Shown here: positions 1 to 25,123 of the stretch, in pieces
Layout: the number at the start of each line of letters is the position of its first letter
How positions within the stretch are numbered: the first letter of the stretch is position 1
DNA from: a virus
Reading direction: 5' to 3' (one strand)
Virus record (IMG/VR): IMGVR_UViG_3300012979_000178
DNA: 25,123 nt
The notes under the pieces: model-generated
Seen by the model: only the letters and a program-made list of their open reading frames with translations
Told to the model about the DNA's origin: nothing
The model's database searches: none
Made by a program: the position numbers and the translations under genes

Positions 1-1
1 A

Positions 2-175
2 ATTATTGCTTATTTATGTACTAAGACAATTGAAAATGTAAGTAAATATGGCAGTCGATTAAACGGAACTGCAAAAGAAAATATAGAAGAAGTAGAAGCT
101 CCAATAGAAGAGGAAAGGGTAATAGAATTAAAAGAAGAGAAAAAGGAGAATGTGAACAATGGCAACAACAACTGA
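2..175 (+). CDS. 3' end of a hypothetical protein whose 5' end lies outside the window; the tail is E/K-rich and ends at TGA
   Basis: An open frame runs from the window edge to the TGA at 173-175. That stop overlaps the ATG at 160 of the next gene in ATGA-like coupling. Confidence 0.4.
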   Translation: MIAYLCTKTIENVSKYGSRLNGTAKENIEEVEAPIEEERVIELKEEKKENVNNGNNN

Positions 176-635
176 TCTTTCTACTTTAGTTTTAAACTTA
201 CTAACTTAGGAATAGTATAATAATGCTACAAAAAACGCCAATGAATTATATTTAATAAGTAATACGGATAACTCTGAAGTTTTTATAGCTACTTATGGTA
301 CAACAACTGCGGAAGAGATTATAGCAGCTTCAAACAATAATAAAATTTGTTTATGTAAAACAATAATAGAAAGTGGTTCAAGTAATGCTGAATTAATAGG
401 ATATCTTAAGGCTATTGGAGATTCACAAACTTGTATATTTGAAGCATTTGATTATGATAATATATTAGGAAAATTTTTGTTATTTGTAGATTCTGATAAT
501 TCTTGGTCACAATTAAGATTTGATGTTACTACAGAAATTTCAAATACATCAACTAATGAACAATATGTTACTGCTAAAGCTGTTTATGACTTCCTTGAAA
601 CAGCAATGGGAACCATTCTTAATGGTGCGTCTTAA
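160..635 (+). CDS. hypothetical protein, probably structural; two in-frame TAG codons at 207 and 213 must be read as sense
   Basis: RBS AAGGAGA at 144-150 and ATG at 160. The coding-like frame continues through two TAGs to the TAA at 633-635. No RBS-linked alternative start lies after the TAGs. Confidence 0.45.
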
Positions 636-645
636 GGAGGTATAA

Positions 646-2601
646 ATGGCAACTAATTATGAAACAGTTACAAGTTTACTAAAAGCCACTTGTGATGCAA
701 TTAGAGAAAAAGAAGGCAGCACTGGATTAATTAACCATTAGGATATACCTTCTCGTATATAGAATTTAAAATCGTCAAAACAAGATGTTCTTAGTTTAGT
801 ATCTGGATTAACTAAATATACTGAAGCTTTTGAGGTAGATGGAGAACAACGAACTAATGTTTTAGTTTAGCCATCTGACTTTTCCGATGAAACAACTGTA
901 ACTTGGAGTAGTACAACCACTTATTTTTCTCATTCAATTCAAAATGTTGAAGGAAGCGAAAACGGTGCGGCGGCTGTTATTACAGCAACATCTACTTCTG
1001 CTTCTAGCTATGATCACACTTTTTGGTTTGATACTACTATAGATAGTAGTACTTCAGAAGCAAAATCTTATTTAATTGCAGTTAGAGCAAAAGCCAACAA
1101 AAACATTACTTCAAATTTACCTACTTATGTGTGTTATTGTCATCCAACTGGAAGTACTAGTTAGGCAACTATATATTTTAGTTTTCCTATAACAACAGAA
1201 TGGCAAATATTTTATGCTATTGTTAATATTCCAGCTAATTATTATATGTATGATAATACATTATCTTTTTATCGAACAGGAGATAGAACAATATATTATG
1301 TTGACTGGGTGGCCGCCTATGATATTACTGGATCTAGTTTTGCTAATATGACTTTTGGGGCAAGAGCAACAGCTACCAATGCTCATGTCCTTAGTGGACA
1401 ATCTTATTATAAAGATGGAATGTTATATACTGGAACTATGACAAATAATGGGGCGGTAAATGGTTCAATAACCAATTTATCCACTCCATATACCATTCCT
1501 GCAGGATATCATAATGGTGAGGGAACAGTGTCAATAAGCGATAATGATCTTATTGCTTCAAATATTAAATCTGGAGTTAATATTTTAGGCGTAACAGGAA
1601 CTTTAGATTCGATATCAACCAATTGTAATACTTGGCAAGTTCAAAACGTAGGAGCTACCTATGGATTTACTAAACTTTCTAATGGATATTATGAAAGTAC
1701 TAATCAAGGAATTAATTCTTCTGTTTCATTATGTAAAATTAAGTTTAGAATTTTACTTGGTTCTGTAATAACTTTTAGCTGTATCAACTATGCAGAAAGC
1801 AATTATGATTATGGTATGATTGGAGTAACTAATGTAATTTTAGATGAAACTTATAGTAATAAAGAATATAATGATACCACAAAAATATAGAAACATTTTA
1901 AAAGCTCTAGCAGTTCTAGTGCATAGACTTATACAATGACGCTTGCAAAAGGAGAATATGAAGTTTATATTAAATATTTTAAAGATGGAAGTAGTCATAG
2001 CGGTAATGACTCTTTTAGATTTAAAATTACTGGGGGAGCAGTAGAAATTGATCCAAATATGGGAATAACTCCTTCTGTAATAGTGCAATATAGTAATGAT
2101 TATTTGGACCCAGGAGATGGAATAGAGTTTTCTGCAGGCACTTATATGCCAAATGGCTATAATATTACTGCGAATAATTCTATTATTTCATCTTCTACTT
2201 GTGGAACAACAGGAAGAATTACAAGTAATTCTTGTAGTTCAACCTCAGTTAGTTTTTCATTAAATACTGAATATTTAATAGGTTTTGTTATGTGGTGTAG
2301 TGATGAGGTTTCACAAAGTAGTAATTATAGTAGAATAGCTATGTTAAGCTATGTTAGCGAAGATGGAAGTGATTTAACTAATTGTTTAGAGGGGCAAGAA
2401 GTAACTTGTTAGTCAGTATGTACATCAAAAGGAGATGTAAATGAAGATGATATATGCCATCATAGTCATTTATATAATGAAGATGATATTAGTATATCTA
2501 TATCATCGAATAGTATGACTATCACTGTACTTTATACAGACTATTATAGATTTGATAGTTCATATGATTATTATATGTTACCAATTTATTCTCAATTATA
2601 A
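646..2601 (+). CDS. large T/S/N/G/Y-rich protein resembling a tail fibre or receptor-binding protein. Seven in-frame TAGs (739, 760, 868, 1162, 1888, 1921, 2410) are read as sense. The three track ORFs 1246..1890, 1936..2412 and the downstream frame are joined in the same frame.
   Basis: Strong RBS AAGGAGG at 634-640 and ATG at 646. Frame 1 is continuous except for TAG codons until the TAA at 2599-2601, which sits immediately before the intrinsic terminator. The internal ATGs at 1246 and 1936 have no RBS. The extension beyond 1890 is less certain than 646..1890. Confidence 0.55.
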
Positions 2602-2610
2602 AATAAAAAA

Positions 2611-2652
2611 TAGCTAGAAAGTTAAATTGAAACTTTCTAGCTATTTTTTATT
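2611..2652 (+). terminator. rho-independent terminator
   Basis: A 13-bp perfect stem TAGCTAGAAAGTT / AACTTTCTAGCTA with a 7-nt loop, followed by a T-run. Confidence 0.8.
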
Positions 2653-2655
2653 TTA

Positions 2656-23429: not shown

Positions 23430-23466
23430 TTAGTTCATTTAAAATTTAATATATAAGGAGAAAATT

Positions 23467-24906
23467 ATGTATCTTTATCTTATTCCAATTGCCGTTATTG
23501 CTGTTATTGTTCTCTTTTGCCTCGGTTATGTAAAGGCTCCTCCGGATCAGGCTTATGTAATTTCCGGGATGATGAAGAAACCTCGTATTCTAATTGGACG
23601 AGCAGGTTTTAAAGTTCCTTTCTTTGAACGTCTTGACAAACTTGCTCTTGGTGCTATTCAGATTGATGTAAAGACTGCTAGTTCGGTTCCCACTGCTGAA
23701 TATATCAATGTAAGAGTTGATTCTAATGTAAATGTAAAAATTGGTCAGGCTCCTGAAATGCTTGAACTTGCTTGTCAGAATTTTCTTAATGTAAAGAGAG
23801 ATGTTATCAATCAGAAGATCAGAGATTTGCTCGAAGGTAATATCCGTGAAATCGTTGGTAGCATGAAGCTTACTGAAATGGTAAGTGATAGAAAGGCTTT
23901 TTCTGAAAAGGTACAGGAAAACGCAGTACCCGATCTTGCGAGATTTGGTCTTGAGCTTATTTCTTTTAATGTTCAGAATTTTGTAGATGATAATGGTGTA
24001 ATTGATAATCTTGGTATTGATAATGTAGAGCAGATTCGCAAGAAGGCTGCTATTGCTAAGTCTGATGCCCAGAGAGAAATTGCAATTGCTGAAGCTGAAA
24101 ATACTAAAATTGCAAATGATGCTCGTGTAAAGGCGGCTGAAGAAATTGCTGCCCGAGACAATGATCTTGAAATTAAGCAGGCGGCTCTTAAGCAGGCAGC
24201 TGATACTGAAAAGGCTCGTGCAGCAGCTGCTATGGCAATCGAATCTGAAAATCAGAATAAACTTAAAAATATTGCAGCTACGGATGCTGAAATTGCAAAG
24301 GCTGAACGCGAAGCCGATCTGAAGCAGAAAGAAATCGAACTGAAAGAATATGAACTTGACGCTCTTGTCCGCAAGCAGGCAGACGCAGATAAATATGCAG
24401 TAGAGCAGAAGGCAGCCGCAGAACTTGCTGTTCGTCAGAGAAAAGCAGAAGCTGAAAAGTTTGAACGTGAACAGCGTGCAGAAGCTGAAAAGTTTGCAGC
24501 AATTCAGGAAGCAGAAGCAGAAAAAGCAAAGGCTGATGCCGCTAAATATGCCGCACTTGCAGAAGCAGAAGGTATTGCCGCTGTAAAGAAAGCTGAAGCA
24601 GAAGGTATTCGTGCTACTGGTATTGCAGAAGCAGAAGGTATTGAAAAGAAGGCAGAAGCCCAGAAGAAGATGGGTGAAGCTTCCGTTCTTGAAATGTACT
24701 TCCAGATGCTTCCGAACGCTGTAGCAAGTGCTGCCGCACCTCTTGAAAATGTTGGAAACATTACAATGTATGGCGACGGCAATCAATCTAAGCTCGTCGG
24801 CGACGTAATGAAGACTGTAAATCAGGTTACCGAAGGTATGAAAGCTAACGGTATTGATATCGCGTCACTTATTGCTGGCGCACTCTCCAAGAAAGACAGT
24901 AAGTAA
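23467..24906 (+). CDS. floT: flotillin (FloT/YuaG-type SPFH/band-7 protein): N-terminal TM segment, SPFH domain, and an E/A-rich coiled coil
   Basis: RBS AAGGAG. It is collinear with B. subtilis FloT: LEGNIREIVGSMKLTEM...FSEKVQ...DLARFGLELISF; KQADADKYAVEQKAAAE; MLPNAVASAAAPLENVGNIT. Confidence 0.85.
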   Translation: MYLYLIPIAVIAVIVLFCLGYVKAPPDQAYVISGMMKKPRILIGRAGFKVPFFERLDKLALGAIQIDVKTASSVPTAEYINVRVDSNVNVKIGQAPEMLELACQNFLNVKRDVINQKIRDLLEGNIREIVGSMKLTEMVSDRKAFSEKVQENAVPDLARFGLELISFNVQNFVDDNGVIDNLGIDNVEQIRKKAAIAKSDAQREIAIAEAENTKIANDARVKAAEEIAARDNDLEIKQAALKQAADTEKARAAAAMAIESENQNKLKNIAATDAEIAKAEREADLKQKEIELKEYELDALVRKQADADKYAVEQKAAAELAVRQRKAEAEKFEREQRAEAEKFAAIQEAEAEKAKADAAKYAALAEAEGIAAVKKAEAEGIRATGIAEAEGIEKKAEAQKKMGEASVLEMYFQMLPNAVASAAAPLENVGNITMYGDGNQSKLVGDVMKTVNQVTEGMKANGIDIASLIAGALSKKDSK

Positions 24907-24914
24907 AAATAAAT

Positions 24915-24955
24915 AAGTAAGGAAGATTTTATTCTTCCTTACTTTGATTTTTCTT
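24915..24955 (+). terminator. rho-independent terminator
   Basis: Stem AAGTAAGGAAGA / TCTTCCTTACTT with a 6-nt loop, then a T-rich tract. Confidence 0.75.
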
Positions 24956-24975
24956 AAAATTTTTGTTATAATAAA
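24944..24975 (+). promoter_or_regulatory. conserved promoter copy 10 (-35 TTGATT, TGTTATAAT)
   Basis: Motif match. Confidence 0.65.
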
Positions 24976-25004
24976 ATAAAGAAAATATAGGAGGACAAAC
25001 AAAA

Positions 25005-25123
25005 ATGATGAAAAAACTTTTATCACTTCTATTAGCATTAACTCTTACAGTTTCAGTAGCATTTGCTTTTACAGATGACAATGCTATTGGTATTGATTAT
25101 GTAGATGATGTTAATATGCTTGT
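25005..25123 (+). CDS. 5' end of a secreted or lipoprotein-like protein with a signal peptide (partial)
   Basis: RBS AGGAGG. MMKKLLSLLLALTLTVSVAFA is a typical signal peptide. The gene runs off the window. Confidence 0.5.
   Translation, partial: MMKKLLSLLLALTLTVSVAFAFTDDNAIGIDYVDDVNML

What the first reader, a model, noticed from the sequence alone, without database searches (positions are those of the whole stretch)
1..25123. TAG (amber) is used as a sense codon in a defined subset of genes, and no gene in the window terminates with TAG
Several stretches with no standard ORF become long coding frames only if TAG is translated. They have good RBSs, protein-like composition and recognisable domains. 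These are 160..635 (2 TAGs), 646..2601 (7), 2878..3051 (2), 10077..10811 (1), 12336..13187 (1), 15988..16440 (1) and the GIY-YIG endonuclease 21923..22861 (8 TAGs in 313 codons). In the endonuclease, conserved GIY-YIG blocks lie on both sides of TAG codons, so TAG cannot be a stop there. In the zinc-ribbon repeats, TAG aligns with K/N/R positions of sister repeats. All of roughly 38 gene ends I checked are TAA or TGA, never TAG. By contrast, the metabolic and repair genes (MVP 849 codons, flotillin 479, ligase 476, PncB 411 and others, more than 5000 codons) contain zero TAG. That points to two expression classes, as in the early/late code switch described for crAss-like and Lak phages where TAG is read as Gln. 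The alternative is that these genes were recently acquired from standard-code donors. The TAG-free genes are mostly expressed from the host-type promoters, while the TAG-containing genes are structural and selfish-endonuclease genes. No suppressor tRNA is visible in this window. Precedent favours Gln, but Lys or others are not excluded.
Basis: partly seen in the sequence, partly recalled or inferred. Interest (0 to 1): 0.85.

Follow-up and report, generated by a model that had tools for sequence, protein, structure and literature searches.

The report
Phage reads TAG as glutamine
This 25-kb piece of a roughly 184-kb gut phage reads the stop codon TAG as glutamine in its tail genes and selfish nuclease genes but keeps TAG out of its other genes, which is a real but already described kind of phage genetic-code switch.

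Summary
With TAG read as sense, seven + strand genes become full-length ORFs holding 22 in-frame TAGs and no TAA or TGA. All 34 genes end in TAA (27) or TGA (7). Another 27 genes (5,838 codons) hold no TAG.

The readthrough frames are real genes. Family profiles span the TAGs. TAG positions are conserved in independent assemblies that are 83-96% identical. Substitutions concentrate at third codon positions.

TAG most likely encodes Gln. In the tail-fibre gene, TAG sits where TAG-free homologues have CAG or CAA, inside conserved motifs. Across about 140 related loci, 60% of the non-TAG partners of TAG are Gln codons, 22 times background.

The window has no tRNA and is a complete contig, so its own suppressor could not be found. 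Twenty-three related loci carry a tRNA(CUA), several of them Gln-like.

This matches the partial code-15 recoding described by Borges et al., which includes a recoded homing endonuclease inside an early gene. It is therefore a new member of a known kind.

Some details are less familiar:
- Homing endonucleases are the most TAG-dense genes.
- They sit inside operons with TAG-free genes.
- TAGs lie preferentially near the 5' ends of genes.

The parts
159..635 (+). 158-codon tail-module gene with in-frame TAG at 207-209 and 213-215 (codons 17 and 19)
   Evidence: ORF exists only with TAG as sense. An AGGAG lies 9 nt upstream of the ATG. TAG 17 is conserved in L029, L030 and L031. Codon 19 is CAA in L029 and L030, and window CAA 90 is TAG in L031. 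Substitutions by codon position 1/2/3 are 6/5/18.
646..2601 (+). 651-codon tail-fibre-like gene with 7 in-frame TAGs: 739, 760, 868, 1162, 1888, 1924 and 2410 (codons 32, 39, 75, 173, 415, 427, 589)
   Evidence: Full-length homologues are 86% and 62% identical. TAG 75 lies in the motif NVLV-x-PSDFS, where TAG-free homologues have CAG or CAA. TAG 32 is CAG in three homologues. Homologues sit next to a Peptidase_S74 tail spike and a tape-measure gene. Substitutions by codon position are 47/41/113.
2878..3051 (+). 57-codon small gene with TAG at 2884-2886 and 2977-2979; paralogue of the TAG-free gene 2714-2875
   Evidence: Both TAGs are conserved in L030 and L031, and changes are almost all synonymous (4 against 0, and 5 against 1). 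It is preceded by a promoter-like site at 2676-2688.
10077..10811 (+). 244-codon homing endonuclease (zinc-ribbon repeats plus a PD-(D/E)xK-like nuclease domain) with TAG at 10161-10163 (codon 29)
   Evidence: PHROG 559 E = 8e-38, spanning the TAG. 62%-identical orthologues in L006, L007 and L026 keep TAG at the same column. The gene is 99.7% identical to the L031 copy, while the flanks are about 95% identical.
12336..13187 (+). 283-codon homing endonuclease of the same type with TAG at 12477-12479 (codon 48)
   Evidence: PHROG 374 E = 1e-48 and PHROG 559 covering residues 3-279, both spanning the TAG. Standard-code gene calling splits it into pieces of 47 and 194 aa.
15988..16440 (+). 150-codon gene of unknown function with TAG at 16045-16047 (codon 20)
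   Evidence: The L143 orthologue has the same length and TAG at the same codon.
21923..22858 (+). 311-codon GIY-YIG/NUMOD homing endonuclease with 8 TAGs: 21959, 22040, 22154, 22217, 22256, 22463, 22655 and 22715
   Evidence: Pfam GIY-YIG 31.6 bits (cut-off 22.6), NUMOD1 and I-HmuI NUMOD-like all above cut-off. PHROG 7168 covers residues 1-297. The gene lies in a 1,050-bp insertion (21850-22899) that is absent from relatives L143 and L144, which are 93-95% identical.
3231..5780 (+). Example of the TAG-free class: MVP-like gene, 849 codons, 0 TAG, Gln codons CAA 1 and CAG 30
   Evidence: Its 28 orthologues carry 2 TAGs in about 22,800 codons.
2676..2688 (+). Promoter-like TTGTATAATATAT (extended -10 type). 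Similar + strand sites lie at 3179, 5838, 8089, 15229, 20285 and 21305, each in an intergenic region. The sites at 2676, 5838, 8089 and 15229 follow the terminator-like hairpins at 2604-2650, 5785-5816, 8036-8065 and 15181-15209; a further hairpin lies at 13619-13645.
   Evidence: These sites delimit transcription units that mix TAG-free and TAG-containing genes. They are consensus matches only; function was not tested.

Best explanation
The window is a fragment of a roughly 184-kb tailed phage from the gut, probably infecting Bacillota, that uses a partial TAG-to-glutamine reassignment (genetic code 15).

Shown: TAG is translated in seven genes: two tail-module genes, three homing endonucleases and two small genes of unknown function. 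TAG never terminates a gene. The other 27 genes contain no TAG and so can be translated by an unmodified standard-code host. The amino acid is Gln.

Inferred from relatives and from published work: a phage-encoded amber-suppressor tRNA(CUA), charged with Gln, is made during infection. Only then can TAG-containing mRNAs be read through. This delays or gates the tail proteins and the selfish nucleases at the level of translation, even where they are co-transcribed with TAG-free genes.

The 5' bias of TAG fits such a gate: without the suppressor, translation aborts early and cheaply.
For: TAG is translated:
- The seven ORFs exist only with TAG as sense, and all 22 internal stops are TAG.
- Pfam and PHROG profiles span the TAGs.
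- TAG columns are conserved in independent assemblies from ENA, Logan and JGI at 83-96% DNA identity, and in orthologues at 62% protein identity.
- Substitutions show a third-position excess along the whole readthrough frames.

TAG is never a stop:
- 0 of 34 gene ends in the window and 0 of 49 in the sister genome.

The amino acid is Gln:
- Window TAG 75 of the fibre gene corresponds to CAG or CAA in two TAG-free homologues, within NVLV-Q-PSDFS. TAG 32 corresponds to CAG in three homologues.
- TAG and CAA swap at three further sites among close relatives.
- Clade-wide there are 578 TAG sites in homologue pairs of 70-99.9% identity. 458 are conserved as TAG. Of the remaining partners, 60% are Gln codons, 22 times background.

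Suppressor tRNA:
- 23 related loci carry a tRNA(CUA), and none carries tRNA(UCA) or tRNA(UUA).
- Several have G73, G2-C71, G3-C70 and a mismatched 1:72 pair. From my own knowledge of E. coli tRNA identity elements, I read these as Gln/Trp-like features.
- Several are closest to the phages' own tRNA-Gln(UUG).

Class bias:
- Fisher p = 1.4e-10 in the window.
- Clade-wide, homing endonucleases have 14.9 TAG per 1,000 codons, against 0.09 for MVP and 0 for the RNA ligase.

5' bias:
- The first TAG lies within the first 17% of all 7 genes (P about 3e-4).
- Clade-wide KS p = 1.8e-6 against CAA/CAG codons of the same genes.

Precedent:
- The Borges et al. preprint 10.1101/2021.08.26.457843 describes partial recoding, early genes compatible with the standard code, and a recoded intron endonuclease inside an early gene.
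- PMC9523058 states in its abstract that it gives metaproteomic evidence for code 15 in crAss-like phages (abstract only read).
Against: - No suppressor tRNA, release factor or aminoacyl-tRNA synthetase lies in the window.
- None lies in the 43.6 kb obtained from the 91-96%-identical sister genome. The machinery of this lineage has therefore not been seen.
- Expression timing is untested.
- TAG-containing and TAG-free genes share predicted transcription units, so 'late' is an inference.
- Not all tail-module genes are recoded: the DUF285 protein of the sister genome has 0 TAG in 1,335 codons.
- Some TAG columns align with residues other than Gln: G in the GIY-YIG motif, and S, D, E or V elsewhere.
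- Trp (TGG) is the second most enriched partner at 5.5 times background, and the suppressor acceptor stems would also suit a Trp-derived tRNA.
- 45 related loci show no supported in-frame TAG in this region.
Confidence: 0.85

Rival explanations
1. The TAG-interrupted frames are decaying pseudogenes, for example dead homing endonucleases and tail-fibre remnants, and TAG is an ordinary stop codon.
For: Homing endonucleases often decay. Standard-code gene callers split these genes into fragments. The GIY-YIG insertion appears to have damaged the neighbouring phosphatase gene.
Against: All 22 interruptions are TAG and none is TAA or TGA, although TAA is 2.7 times more common on this strand (P about 5e-17). 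There are no frameshifts within the seven ORFs. TAG positions are conserved across relatives at 62-96% identity. Substitutions show a third-position excess downstream of the TAGs. No gene in the window or the sister genome ends in TAG.
Confidence: 0.02
2. TAG is read as an amino acid other than Gln: pyrrolysine (the label ARAGORN prints for any CUA anticodon), Lys, Trp, or a mixture that depends on which suppressor is present.
For: Lys is twice background among distant partners of TAG, and Trp is 5.5 times background among close partners. The acceptor stem of several suppressors (…CGCCCCU-G-CCA, G73) also resembles bacterial tRNA-Trp; this comparison rests on my own knowledge and was not tested. 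Some relatives carry two different tRNA(CUA) genes, or versions about 90 nt long.
Against: Gln codons make up 60% of changed partners among close homologues, against 6.7% for Trp and 4.7% for Lys. CAA, which is two mutations away from TAG, is the commonest partner; this fits a synonymous path through CAG. TAG-free homologues have Gln at the conserved columns of the window's own fibre gene. No Pyl genes turned up in the Pfam scans of the window's genes, and the tRNAs fold as ordinary 74-76-nt cloverleaves.
Confidence: 0.07
3. The phage has no code-switch machinery of its own. It infects a host that already suppresses or reassigns TAG, or it relies on low-level natural readthrough.
For: No tRNA was found in the window or in 43.6 kb of the sister genome. 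PMC13037316 reports that about 40% of recoded jumbo phages lack a detectable suppressor.
Against: Eight TAGs in one 311-codon gene cannot be passed by low-efficiency readthrough. 27 of 34 genes strictly avoid TAG, which would be unnecessary in a host that reads TAG. Many relatives do encode a tRNA(CUA). About three quarters of the sister genome was not examined.
Confidence: 0.06

Closest known systems
TAG-to-Gln (genetic code 15) recoded gut phages: Lak phages, crAss-like phages and the 'gemstone' clades of Borges et al. (bioRxiv 10.1101/2021.08.26.457843); proteomic validation in PMC9523058
   Same: In-frame TAG aligns with Gln. TAG is absent as a terminator. Only part of the gene set is recoded, and a block of genes remains compatible with the standard code. 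Tail and structural genes are recoded. Relatives carry a suppressor tRNA(CUA). The genome has low GC and comes from the gut. The paper also describes a homing endonuclease recoded inside an early gene.
   Different: The lineage differs. It is a clade of about 150-200-kb phages that encode an MVP-like protein, flotillin, an RNA ligase and NAD-salvage genes, with affinities to Bacillota phages. It has no DNA match in the phage collection. Membership in a named clade such as Agate, Jade or Sapphire could not be tested, because no terminase gene is available. In this window the most TAG-dense genes are free-standing homing endonucleases, not lysis genes. No lysis cassette, RF2 or suppressor lies in the window.
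Jumbo phages with alternative codes and suppressor tRNAs (PMC13037316; huge phages represented by records LR756500-LR756503)
   Same: Large genomes with tRNA arrays. Recoding is confined to part of the genome. A CUA suppressor is present in many members but not all. The MVP-like protein is 38% identical to ORFs in the 462-735-kb phage records.
   Different: The genome is just under the 200-kb jumbo threshold. No tRNA array lies next to the MVP gene in this lineage, whereas relatives have one 4-9 kb upstream.
MVP-encoding human-gut phages ct2Ri15 and ctOa11 (bioRxiv 10.1101/2023.11.10.566534)
   Same: Gut phages that encode a major-vault-protein homologue and cluster with phages of Bacillota.
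   Different: The terms 'genetic code', 'stop codon' and 'tRNA' do not occur in that paper. Sequence relatedness to this window was not tested.

Membership tests
Code-15 (TAG to Gln) recoded phage | In-frame TAG inside conserved protein-coding genes, with homology on both sides | tested here: met
   Seven genes with 22 TAGs. Pfam and PHROG matches span them, and homologues align across them.
Code-15 (TAG to Gln) recoded phage | TAG columns correspond to Gln in homologues | tested here: met
   Checked at the DNA level. CAG or CAA occurs in TAG-free homologues at fibre codons 32 and 75. Clade-wide, 60% of changed partners are Gln codons, 22 times background. Database proteins that show Q at these columns were themselves code-15 translations and were not counted.
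Code-15 (TAG to Gln) recoded phage | TAG not used as a terminator | tested here: met
   0 of 34 gene ends in the window and 0 of 49 in the sister genome. One 21-codon ORF (3055-3120) followed by TAG is ambiguous.
Code-15 (TAG to Gln) recoded phage | Genome encodes a suppressor tRNA with anticodon CUA | not testable with these tools
   The window is a whole 25,123-bp contig with no tRNA. Only 43.6 kb of the 183.9-kb sister contig could be fetched, and it has no tRNA. 23 related loci do carry a tRNA(CUA).
Code-15 (TAG to Gln) recoded phage | Accessory code-change genes (RF2, GlnRS) | tested here: not met
   None was found among the window's genes by Pfam, nor among the gene calls of L031 and L143. 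Published recoded phages often lack them too, so this feature is not strictly defining.
Code-15 (TAG to Gln) recoded phage | Recoded late genes against early genes compatible with the standard code | tested here: inconclusive
   The class bias is strong (Fisher p = 1.4e-10; clade-wide). Timing is not measurable here, however. Recoded homing endonucleases share predicted operons with TAG-free genes, and one large tail-module gene of the sister genome is TAG-free.
Pyrrolysine decoding of TAG | Pyl-specific tRNA architecture and pylS/pylBCD genes; TAG aligning with Lys | tested here: not met
   The CUA tRNAs of relatives are ordinary 74-76-nt cloverleaves. No Pyl genes turned up in the Pfam scans. 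Lys is 0.6 times background among close partners of TAG. 'tRNA-Pyl' is only ARAGORN's label for the anticodon.
GIY-YIG homing endonuclease (gene 21923-22858) | GIY-YIG catalytic domain plus NUMOD/HTH DNA-binding modules, and presence/absence polymorphism at the insertion site | tested here: met
   GIY-YIG, NUMOD1 and I-HmuI NUMOD-like are all above the Pfam cut-offs. The 1,050-bp insertion is absent from L143 and L144. Rfam finds no group I intron.
Lak or crAss-like phages | Sequence relatedness to those lineages | not tested
   There is no DNA match to the phage collection. In the RNA-ligase protein search, 15 of 384 matching records were Prevotella phages, none among the listed top hits. No terminase or capsid gene is available for a phylogeny. 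The sister genome's size (184 kb) fits neither Lak (about 560 kb) nor the roughly 105-kb TAG-recoded phages that the preprint analyses.

The most novel reading that the evidence does not exclude
In this clade the code switch may serve mainly as a translational gate on selfish homing endonucleases and tail genes, acting independently of transcription.

The endonucleases are the most TAG-dense genes. They sit inside early or middle operons next to TAG-free genes. TAG codons lie preferentially near the 5' end of ORFs, so translation aborts early until the suppressor tRNA appears.

A corollary is a 'code barrier': these endonucleases could spread only among TAG-recoded phages.
Probability: 0.3. 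Interest if true: 0.55.

Novelty: new member of a known kind. Interest (0 to 1): 0.35.

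Why it matters
The practical consequence is for annotation. Standard-code gene calling fragments seven genes of this contig, as happened in the ENA copy. The contig and its clade of 150-200-kb gut phages should be annotated with code 15.

Biologically, the finding adds a lineage with Bacillota affinities, encoding MVP and NAD-salvage genes, to the list of TAG-to-Gln phages.

It also provides a clean small example in which genes compatible with the standard code and recoded genes are interleaved within operons. 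That arrangement is useful for testing whether recoding acts as a translational timer.

The concentration of TAG in homing endonucleases and its 5' bias are testable refinements of the published model. They do not amount to a new principle.

Tried and rejected
1. Extending the window. It is identical to the start of ENA contig k141_1608228 (23.7 kb) and equals a whole 25,123-bp JGI contig, so it cannot be extended.

2. Finding the suppressor tRNA of this lineage.
- ARAGORN and Rfam found nothing in the window.
- Two pieces of the 183.9-kb sister contig (43.6 kb) hold no tRNA.
- 40 kb of the closest IMG/VR contig, L002, hold none.
- A search with the DUF2828 protein that flanks tRNA arrays in relatives did not return a hit on the sister contig.

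3. Using the Q residues of database homologues as evidence for Gln. This was rejected. P0001, P0002 and P0004 do not translate under table 11, meaning they were themselves called with TAG read as Q. The DNA confirmed that most of those Qs are TAG. Only DNA-level comparisons and TAG-free homologues were counted.

4. The idea that TAG specifically replaces CAG. TAG-containing genes have 2 CAG against 22 TAG, while TAG-free genes have 80 CAG. This was rejected as a separate signal, because AT-rich TAG-free genes also lack CAG. CAG is concentrated in the few genes with 35-42% GC.

5. A group I intron around the GIY-YIG gene. Rfam gives no hit. No splice-site choice both restores the phosphatase frame and ends the intron on G.

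6. A DNA search of the phage collection found no match.

Full report
**What is in the window.** The window is 25,123 bases with 30.7% GC. All convincing genes lie on the + strand. It equals a whole JGI contig: the flotillin protein matches a database entry at 100% whose longest contig is 25,123 bp. Its first 15.8 kb equal the start of a 23.7-kb ENA contig. It therefore cannot be extended.

Pfam identifies the following genes:
- a major-vault-protein-like gene (3231-5780);
- a T7 Gp5.9-like gene (6188-6505);
- an RNase T-like exonuclease (8504-9400);
- an RNA ligase (10818-12248);
- a nicotinamidase-type isochorismatase (13696-14253);
- Thg1 (14262-15176);
- DUF5662 (15430-15960);
- NAPRTase (16455-17690);
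- a nucleotidyltransferase (18237-18800);
- NAD synthase (18800-19531);
- NADAR (19528-19977);
- two metallophosphatases (20586-21275 and 22887-23429);
- an AAA_33 kinase (21343-21816);
- a flotillin (23467-24906).

In my table of 34 genes, 27 end in TAA, 7 in TGA and none in TAG. The seven TAG-containing genes hold 22 TAGs in 1,854 codons and no TAA or TGA. The other 27 genes hold no TAG in 5,838 codons. TAG is only 18% of stop trinucleotides on this strand, so 22 of 22 by chance has a probability of about 5e-17. This excludes random decay.

With classes fixed beforehand (tail-module genes and homing endonucleases against all others), the counts are 19 TAG in 1,647 codons against 3 in 6,045 (Fisher p = 1.4e-10).

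**The readthrough frames are real genes.**
- The GIY-YIG Pfam domain (31.6 bits, cut-off 22.6) covers residues 1-89 across three TAGs. NUMOD1 and the I-HmuI NUMOD-like domain lie further downstream.
- PHROG 7168 (homing endonuclease) aligns to residues 1-297, across all eight TAGs.
- The two zinc-ribbon nucleases match PHROG 559 and 374 (E = 8e-38 and 1e-48) across their TAGs.
- Their C-terminal domains give only sub-threshold matches to restriction-endonuclease-like families: DUF2726, PvuRts1I-like N-terminal domain and DUF559.
- The 651-aa protein has full-length homologues at 86% and 62% identity.
- More distant homologues of it lie in tail modules, next to a Peptidase_S74 tail spike and a tape-measure gene. 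'Tail-fibre-like' is therefore a fair description.

Independent assemblies that are 83-96% identical at the DNA level (L029, L030, L031, L143) keep most TAGs at the same codons. Differences between them pile up at third codon positions along the whole readthrough frames. In the fibre gene the counts for positions 1, 2 and 3 are 47, 41 and 113. Orthologues of 10077-10811 at 62% protein identity in L006, L007 and L026 keep TAG at the same column.

**Which amino acid.** One caution applies. The close database homologues showing Q at the TAG columns are not independent evidence. They do not translate under table 11, and their DNA has TAG at most of those columns. I therefore used DNA only.

- Within the lineage, window TAG 32 of the fibre gene is CAG in L029 and L030.
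- TAG 19 of gene 159-635 is CAA in L029 and L030.
- Window CAA codons correspond to TAG in L031 and L029 at two further sites.
- GAT, GAG, TCT and TGG each occur once as partners.
- Two homologues that are TAG-free under the standard code (P0028 and P0010) have CAG and CAA at TAG 75, inside the conserved motif NVLV-Q-PSDFS. P0010 has CAG at TAG 32, inside INH-Q-DIPS.

Across all fetched loci, 578 TAG sites lie in homologue pairs of 70-99.9% identity. Of these, 458 are conserved as TAG. Of the remaining partners, 60% are Gln codons (CAA 50, CAG 22), which is 22 times background. Trp is 5.5 times background, and Lys is below background. At 40-70% identity Gln is still 9 times background. CAA is two mutations away from TAG, and its dominance fits a synonymous path through CAG. 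TAG as Gln is well supported.

**The machinery.** The window has no tRNA and no Rfam hit of note. Its Pfam-annotated genes include no release factor or aminoacyl-tRNA synthetase.

The MVP and RNA-ligase genes recover more than 100 related IMG/VR loci on contigs of 90-300 kb. Many have tRNA arrays 4-9 kb upstream of the MVP gene. Twenty-three loci carry a tRNA with anticodon CUA, and none carries UCA or UUA.

Several of these suppressors have G73, G2-C71, G3-C70 and a mismatched 1:72 pair. Several are closest to the phages' own tRNA-Gln(UUG). From my own knowledge, the same acceptor features also resemble bacterial tRNA-Trp, whose CUA mutant is charged with Gln in E. coli. Either origin points to Gln.

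The closest genome is ENA contig k141_182930 (183.9 kb), which is 91-96% identical to the window. I could obtain only 43.6 kb of it, and that part has no tRNA. The suppressor of this particular lineage therefore remains unseen. A last attempt through the DUF2828 protein that flanks the tRNA arrays in relatives did not reach that contig.

**Gene classes and likely mechanism.** The bias holds across the clade:
- The homing-endonuclease family has 14.9 TAG per 1,000 codons, and 31 of its 32 members contain TAG.
- The MVP family has 2 TAGs in 28 orthologues.
- The RNA ligase, the 308-aa protein and the phosphatases have none.

In the sister genome the M23 peptidase, the fibre gene, several small genes and three homing endonucleases contain TAG. 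None of its 49 genes ends in TAG. However, a 1,335-aa DUF285 protein in the tail module is TAG-free.

A promoter-like motif, TGnTATAATATAT, recurs on the + strand in intergenic regions at 2676, 3179, 5838, 8089, 15229, 20285 and 21305. The sites at 2676, 5838, 8089 and 15229 follow terminator-like hairpins. The TAG-containing endonucleases and gene 15988 lie inside these units beside TAG-free genes.

So if TAG delays expression, it does so at the level of translation, not transcription.

This picture matches the published model. In that model, standard-code genes are translated first, a suppressor tRNA then appears, and recoded genes follow. The model includes an intron endonuclease recoded within an early gene (Borges et al. 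preprint). The abstract of PMC9523058 reports proteomic confirmation of code 15 (only the abstract was read). PMC13037316 reports the same pattern in jumbo phages.

**A refinement seen here.** TAG codons are biased toward the 5' end of genes.
- In the window, the first TAG lies within the first 17% of each of the seven genes (P about 3e-4 under a uniform distribution).
- Across the clade there are 312 independent TAG site groups, taken from homologue pairs of 35-75% identity. They fall 23, 29, 21, 10 and 17% into successive fifths of the gene.
- CAA and CAG codons of the same genes fall 17, 21, 19, 24 and 19% (KS p = 1.8e-6).
- I found no mention of this in the Borges preprint using the search terms I tried.

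Three caveats apply. Start codons were called mechanically. Site groups within a gene family are not fully independent. The sample is dominated by endonucleases.

**Rivals.**
- Pseudogenes are excluded by the TAG-only pattern, the conservation of TAG positions and the codon-position bias.
- Pyrrolysine or Lys is contradicted by the partner spectrum and by the ordinary tRNA architecture.
- A small Trp component cannot be excluded.
- Dependence on a host or helper suppressor remains possible, because three quarters of the sister genome was not examined.
- 45 of 143 related loci show no supported in-frame TAG in this region. These may be standard-code relatives, or the region may simply consist of early genes.

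**Verdict.** What it describes is a new member of a known kind: a code-15 phage with partial recoding, from a clade not explicitly described as recoded in the papers I could read. Interest is moderate to low. The main values are correct annotation and a compact test case for translational gating, including gating of homing endonucleases.

Noticed in passing
window 21820-22905: The GIY-YIG gene lies in a 1,050-bp insertion (21850-22899) inside the 5' end of the downstream metallophosphatase gene. The insertion is absent from relatives L143 and L144, which are 93-95% identical. The original first 10 codons (MIWLCSDWHF) remain at 21820-21849 and run into a stop. A diverged second copy (MAIWITSDWH, 22864-22893) sits at the end of the insert. 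It is followed by 8 extra bases, TAGTTTAT, which put it out of frame with the body of the gene. The D-x-H metal-binding motif is thus separated from the rest, so the phosphatase may be inactive, may need a -1 frameshift, or the 8 bases may be an assembly error.
   Followed up: partly
window 13696-19977: This gene set looks like a complete Preiss-Handler NAD+ salvage route plus an ADP-ribose-related enzyme: nicotinamidase-type isochorismatase (13696), NAPRTase (16455), a cytidylyltransferase-like (NadD-like) gene (18237), NAD synthase (18800) and NADAR (19528). It could be a counter-measure to NAD-depleting host defence.
   Followed up: no
window 3231-5780, 10818-12248, 14262-15176, 21343-23429; L021:3507-5024, L024:4504-6024: An MVP-like protein co-occurs with an RNA-repair-like set: RNA ligase, Thg1, and an AAA_33 kinase plus phosphatase. 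In relatives a DUF2828/DUF7788 protein sits between the tRNA array and the MVP gene. MVP-encoding gut phages have been described (bioRxiv 10.1101/2023.11.10.566534).
   Followed up: partly
window 3231-5780 and 23467-24906: The MVP and flotillin genes have 38-42% GC, against 24-31% for most neighbours. They encode Gln almost only as CAG (30 of 31 and 21 of 22), whereas most other genes use CAA. This points to a compositionally distinct gene set, either from older acquisition from cells or from codon selection.
   Followed up: partly
window-wide; loci L002-L148: TAG codons are biased toward the 5' part of genes, both in the window (first TAG within the first 17% of all 7 genes) and across the clade (KS p = 1.8e-6 against CAA/CAG of the same genes).
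   Followed up: yes
window 10077-10811 against L031:19470-20204: This homing endonuclease gene differs at only 2 of 735 bases from the sister genome's copy, while flanking genes are about 95% identical. That pattern is expected for a recently spread mobile gene.
   Followed up: partly
L143:14905-18549 and L143:858-1742: In the sister genome, the gyrase A gene is split by a 330-codon GIY-YIG endonuclease gene containing 3 TAGs. Another 294-codon gene with 8 TAGs sits between the isochorismatase and Thg1 genes, where the window has no gene.
   Followed up: no
L015:1115-1206, L049:4314-4404, L097:7219-7308, L116:3008-3098: Some relatives have tRNA(CUA) genes about 90 nt long, carrying a 16-17-nt insert after the anticodon stem. 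This could be a long variable arm or a small intron. L013 and L014 carry two different tRNA(CUA) genes.
   Followed up: no
window 3055-3150: A small ORF of 21 codons is followed by TAG (3118-3120) and then 9 more codons before TAA. This is the one place where TAG could be either a terminator or a sense codon.
   Followed up: no
window 23590-24786, - strand: A 398-codon ORF lies antisense to the flotillin gene. It is most likely a by-product of the gene's codon composition and not a real gene.
   Followed up: no
window 2714-2875 and 2878-3051: Two adjacent small genes look like paralogues. One is TAG-free and the other has two conserved TAGs, so they form a natural matched pair for testing TAG-dependent expression.
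   Followed up: no
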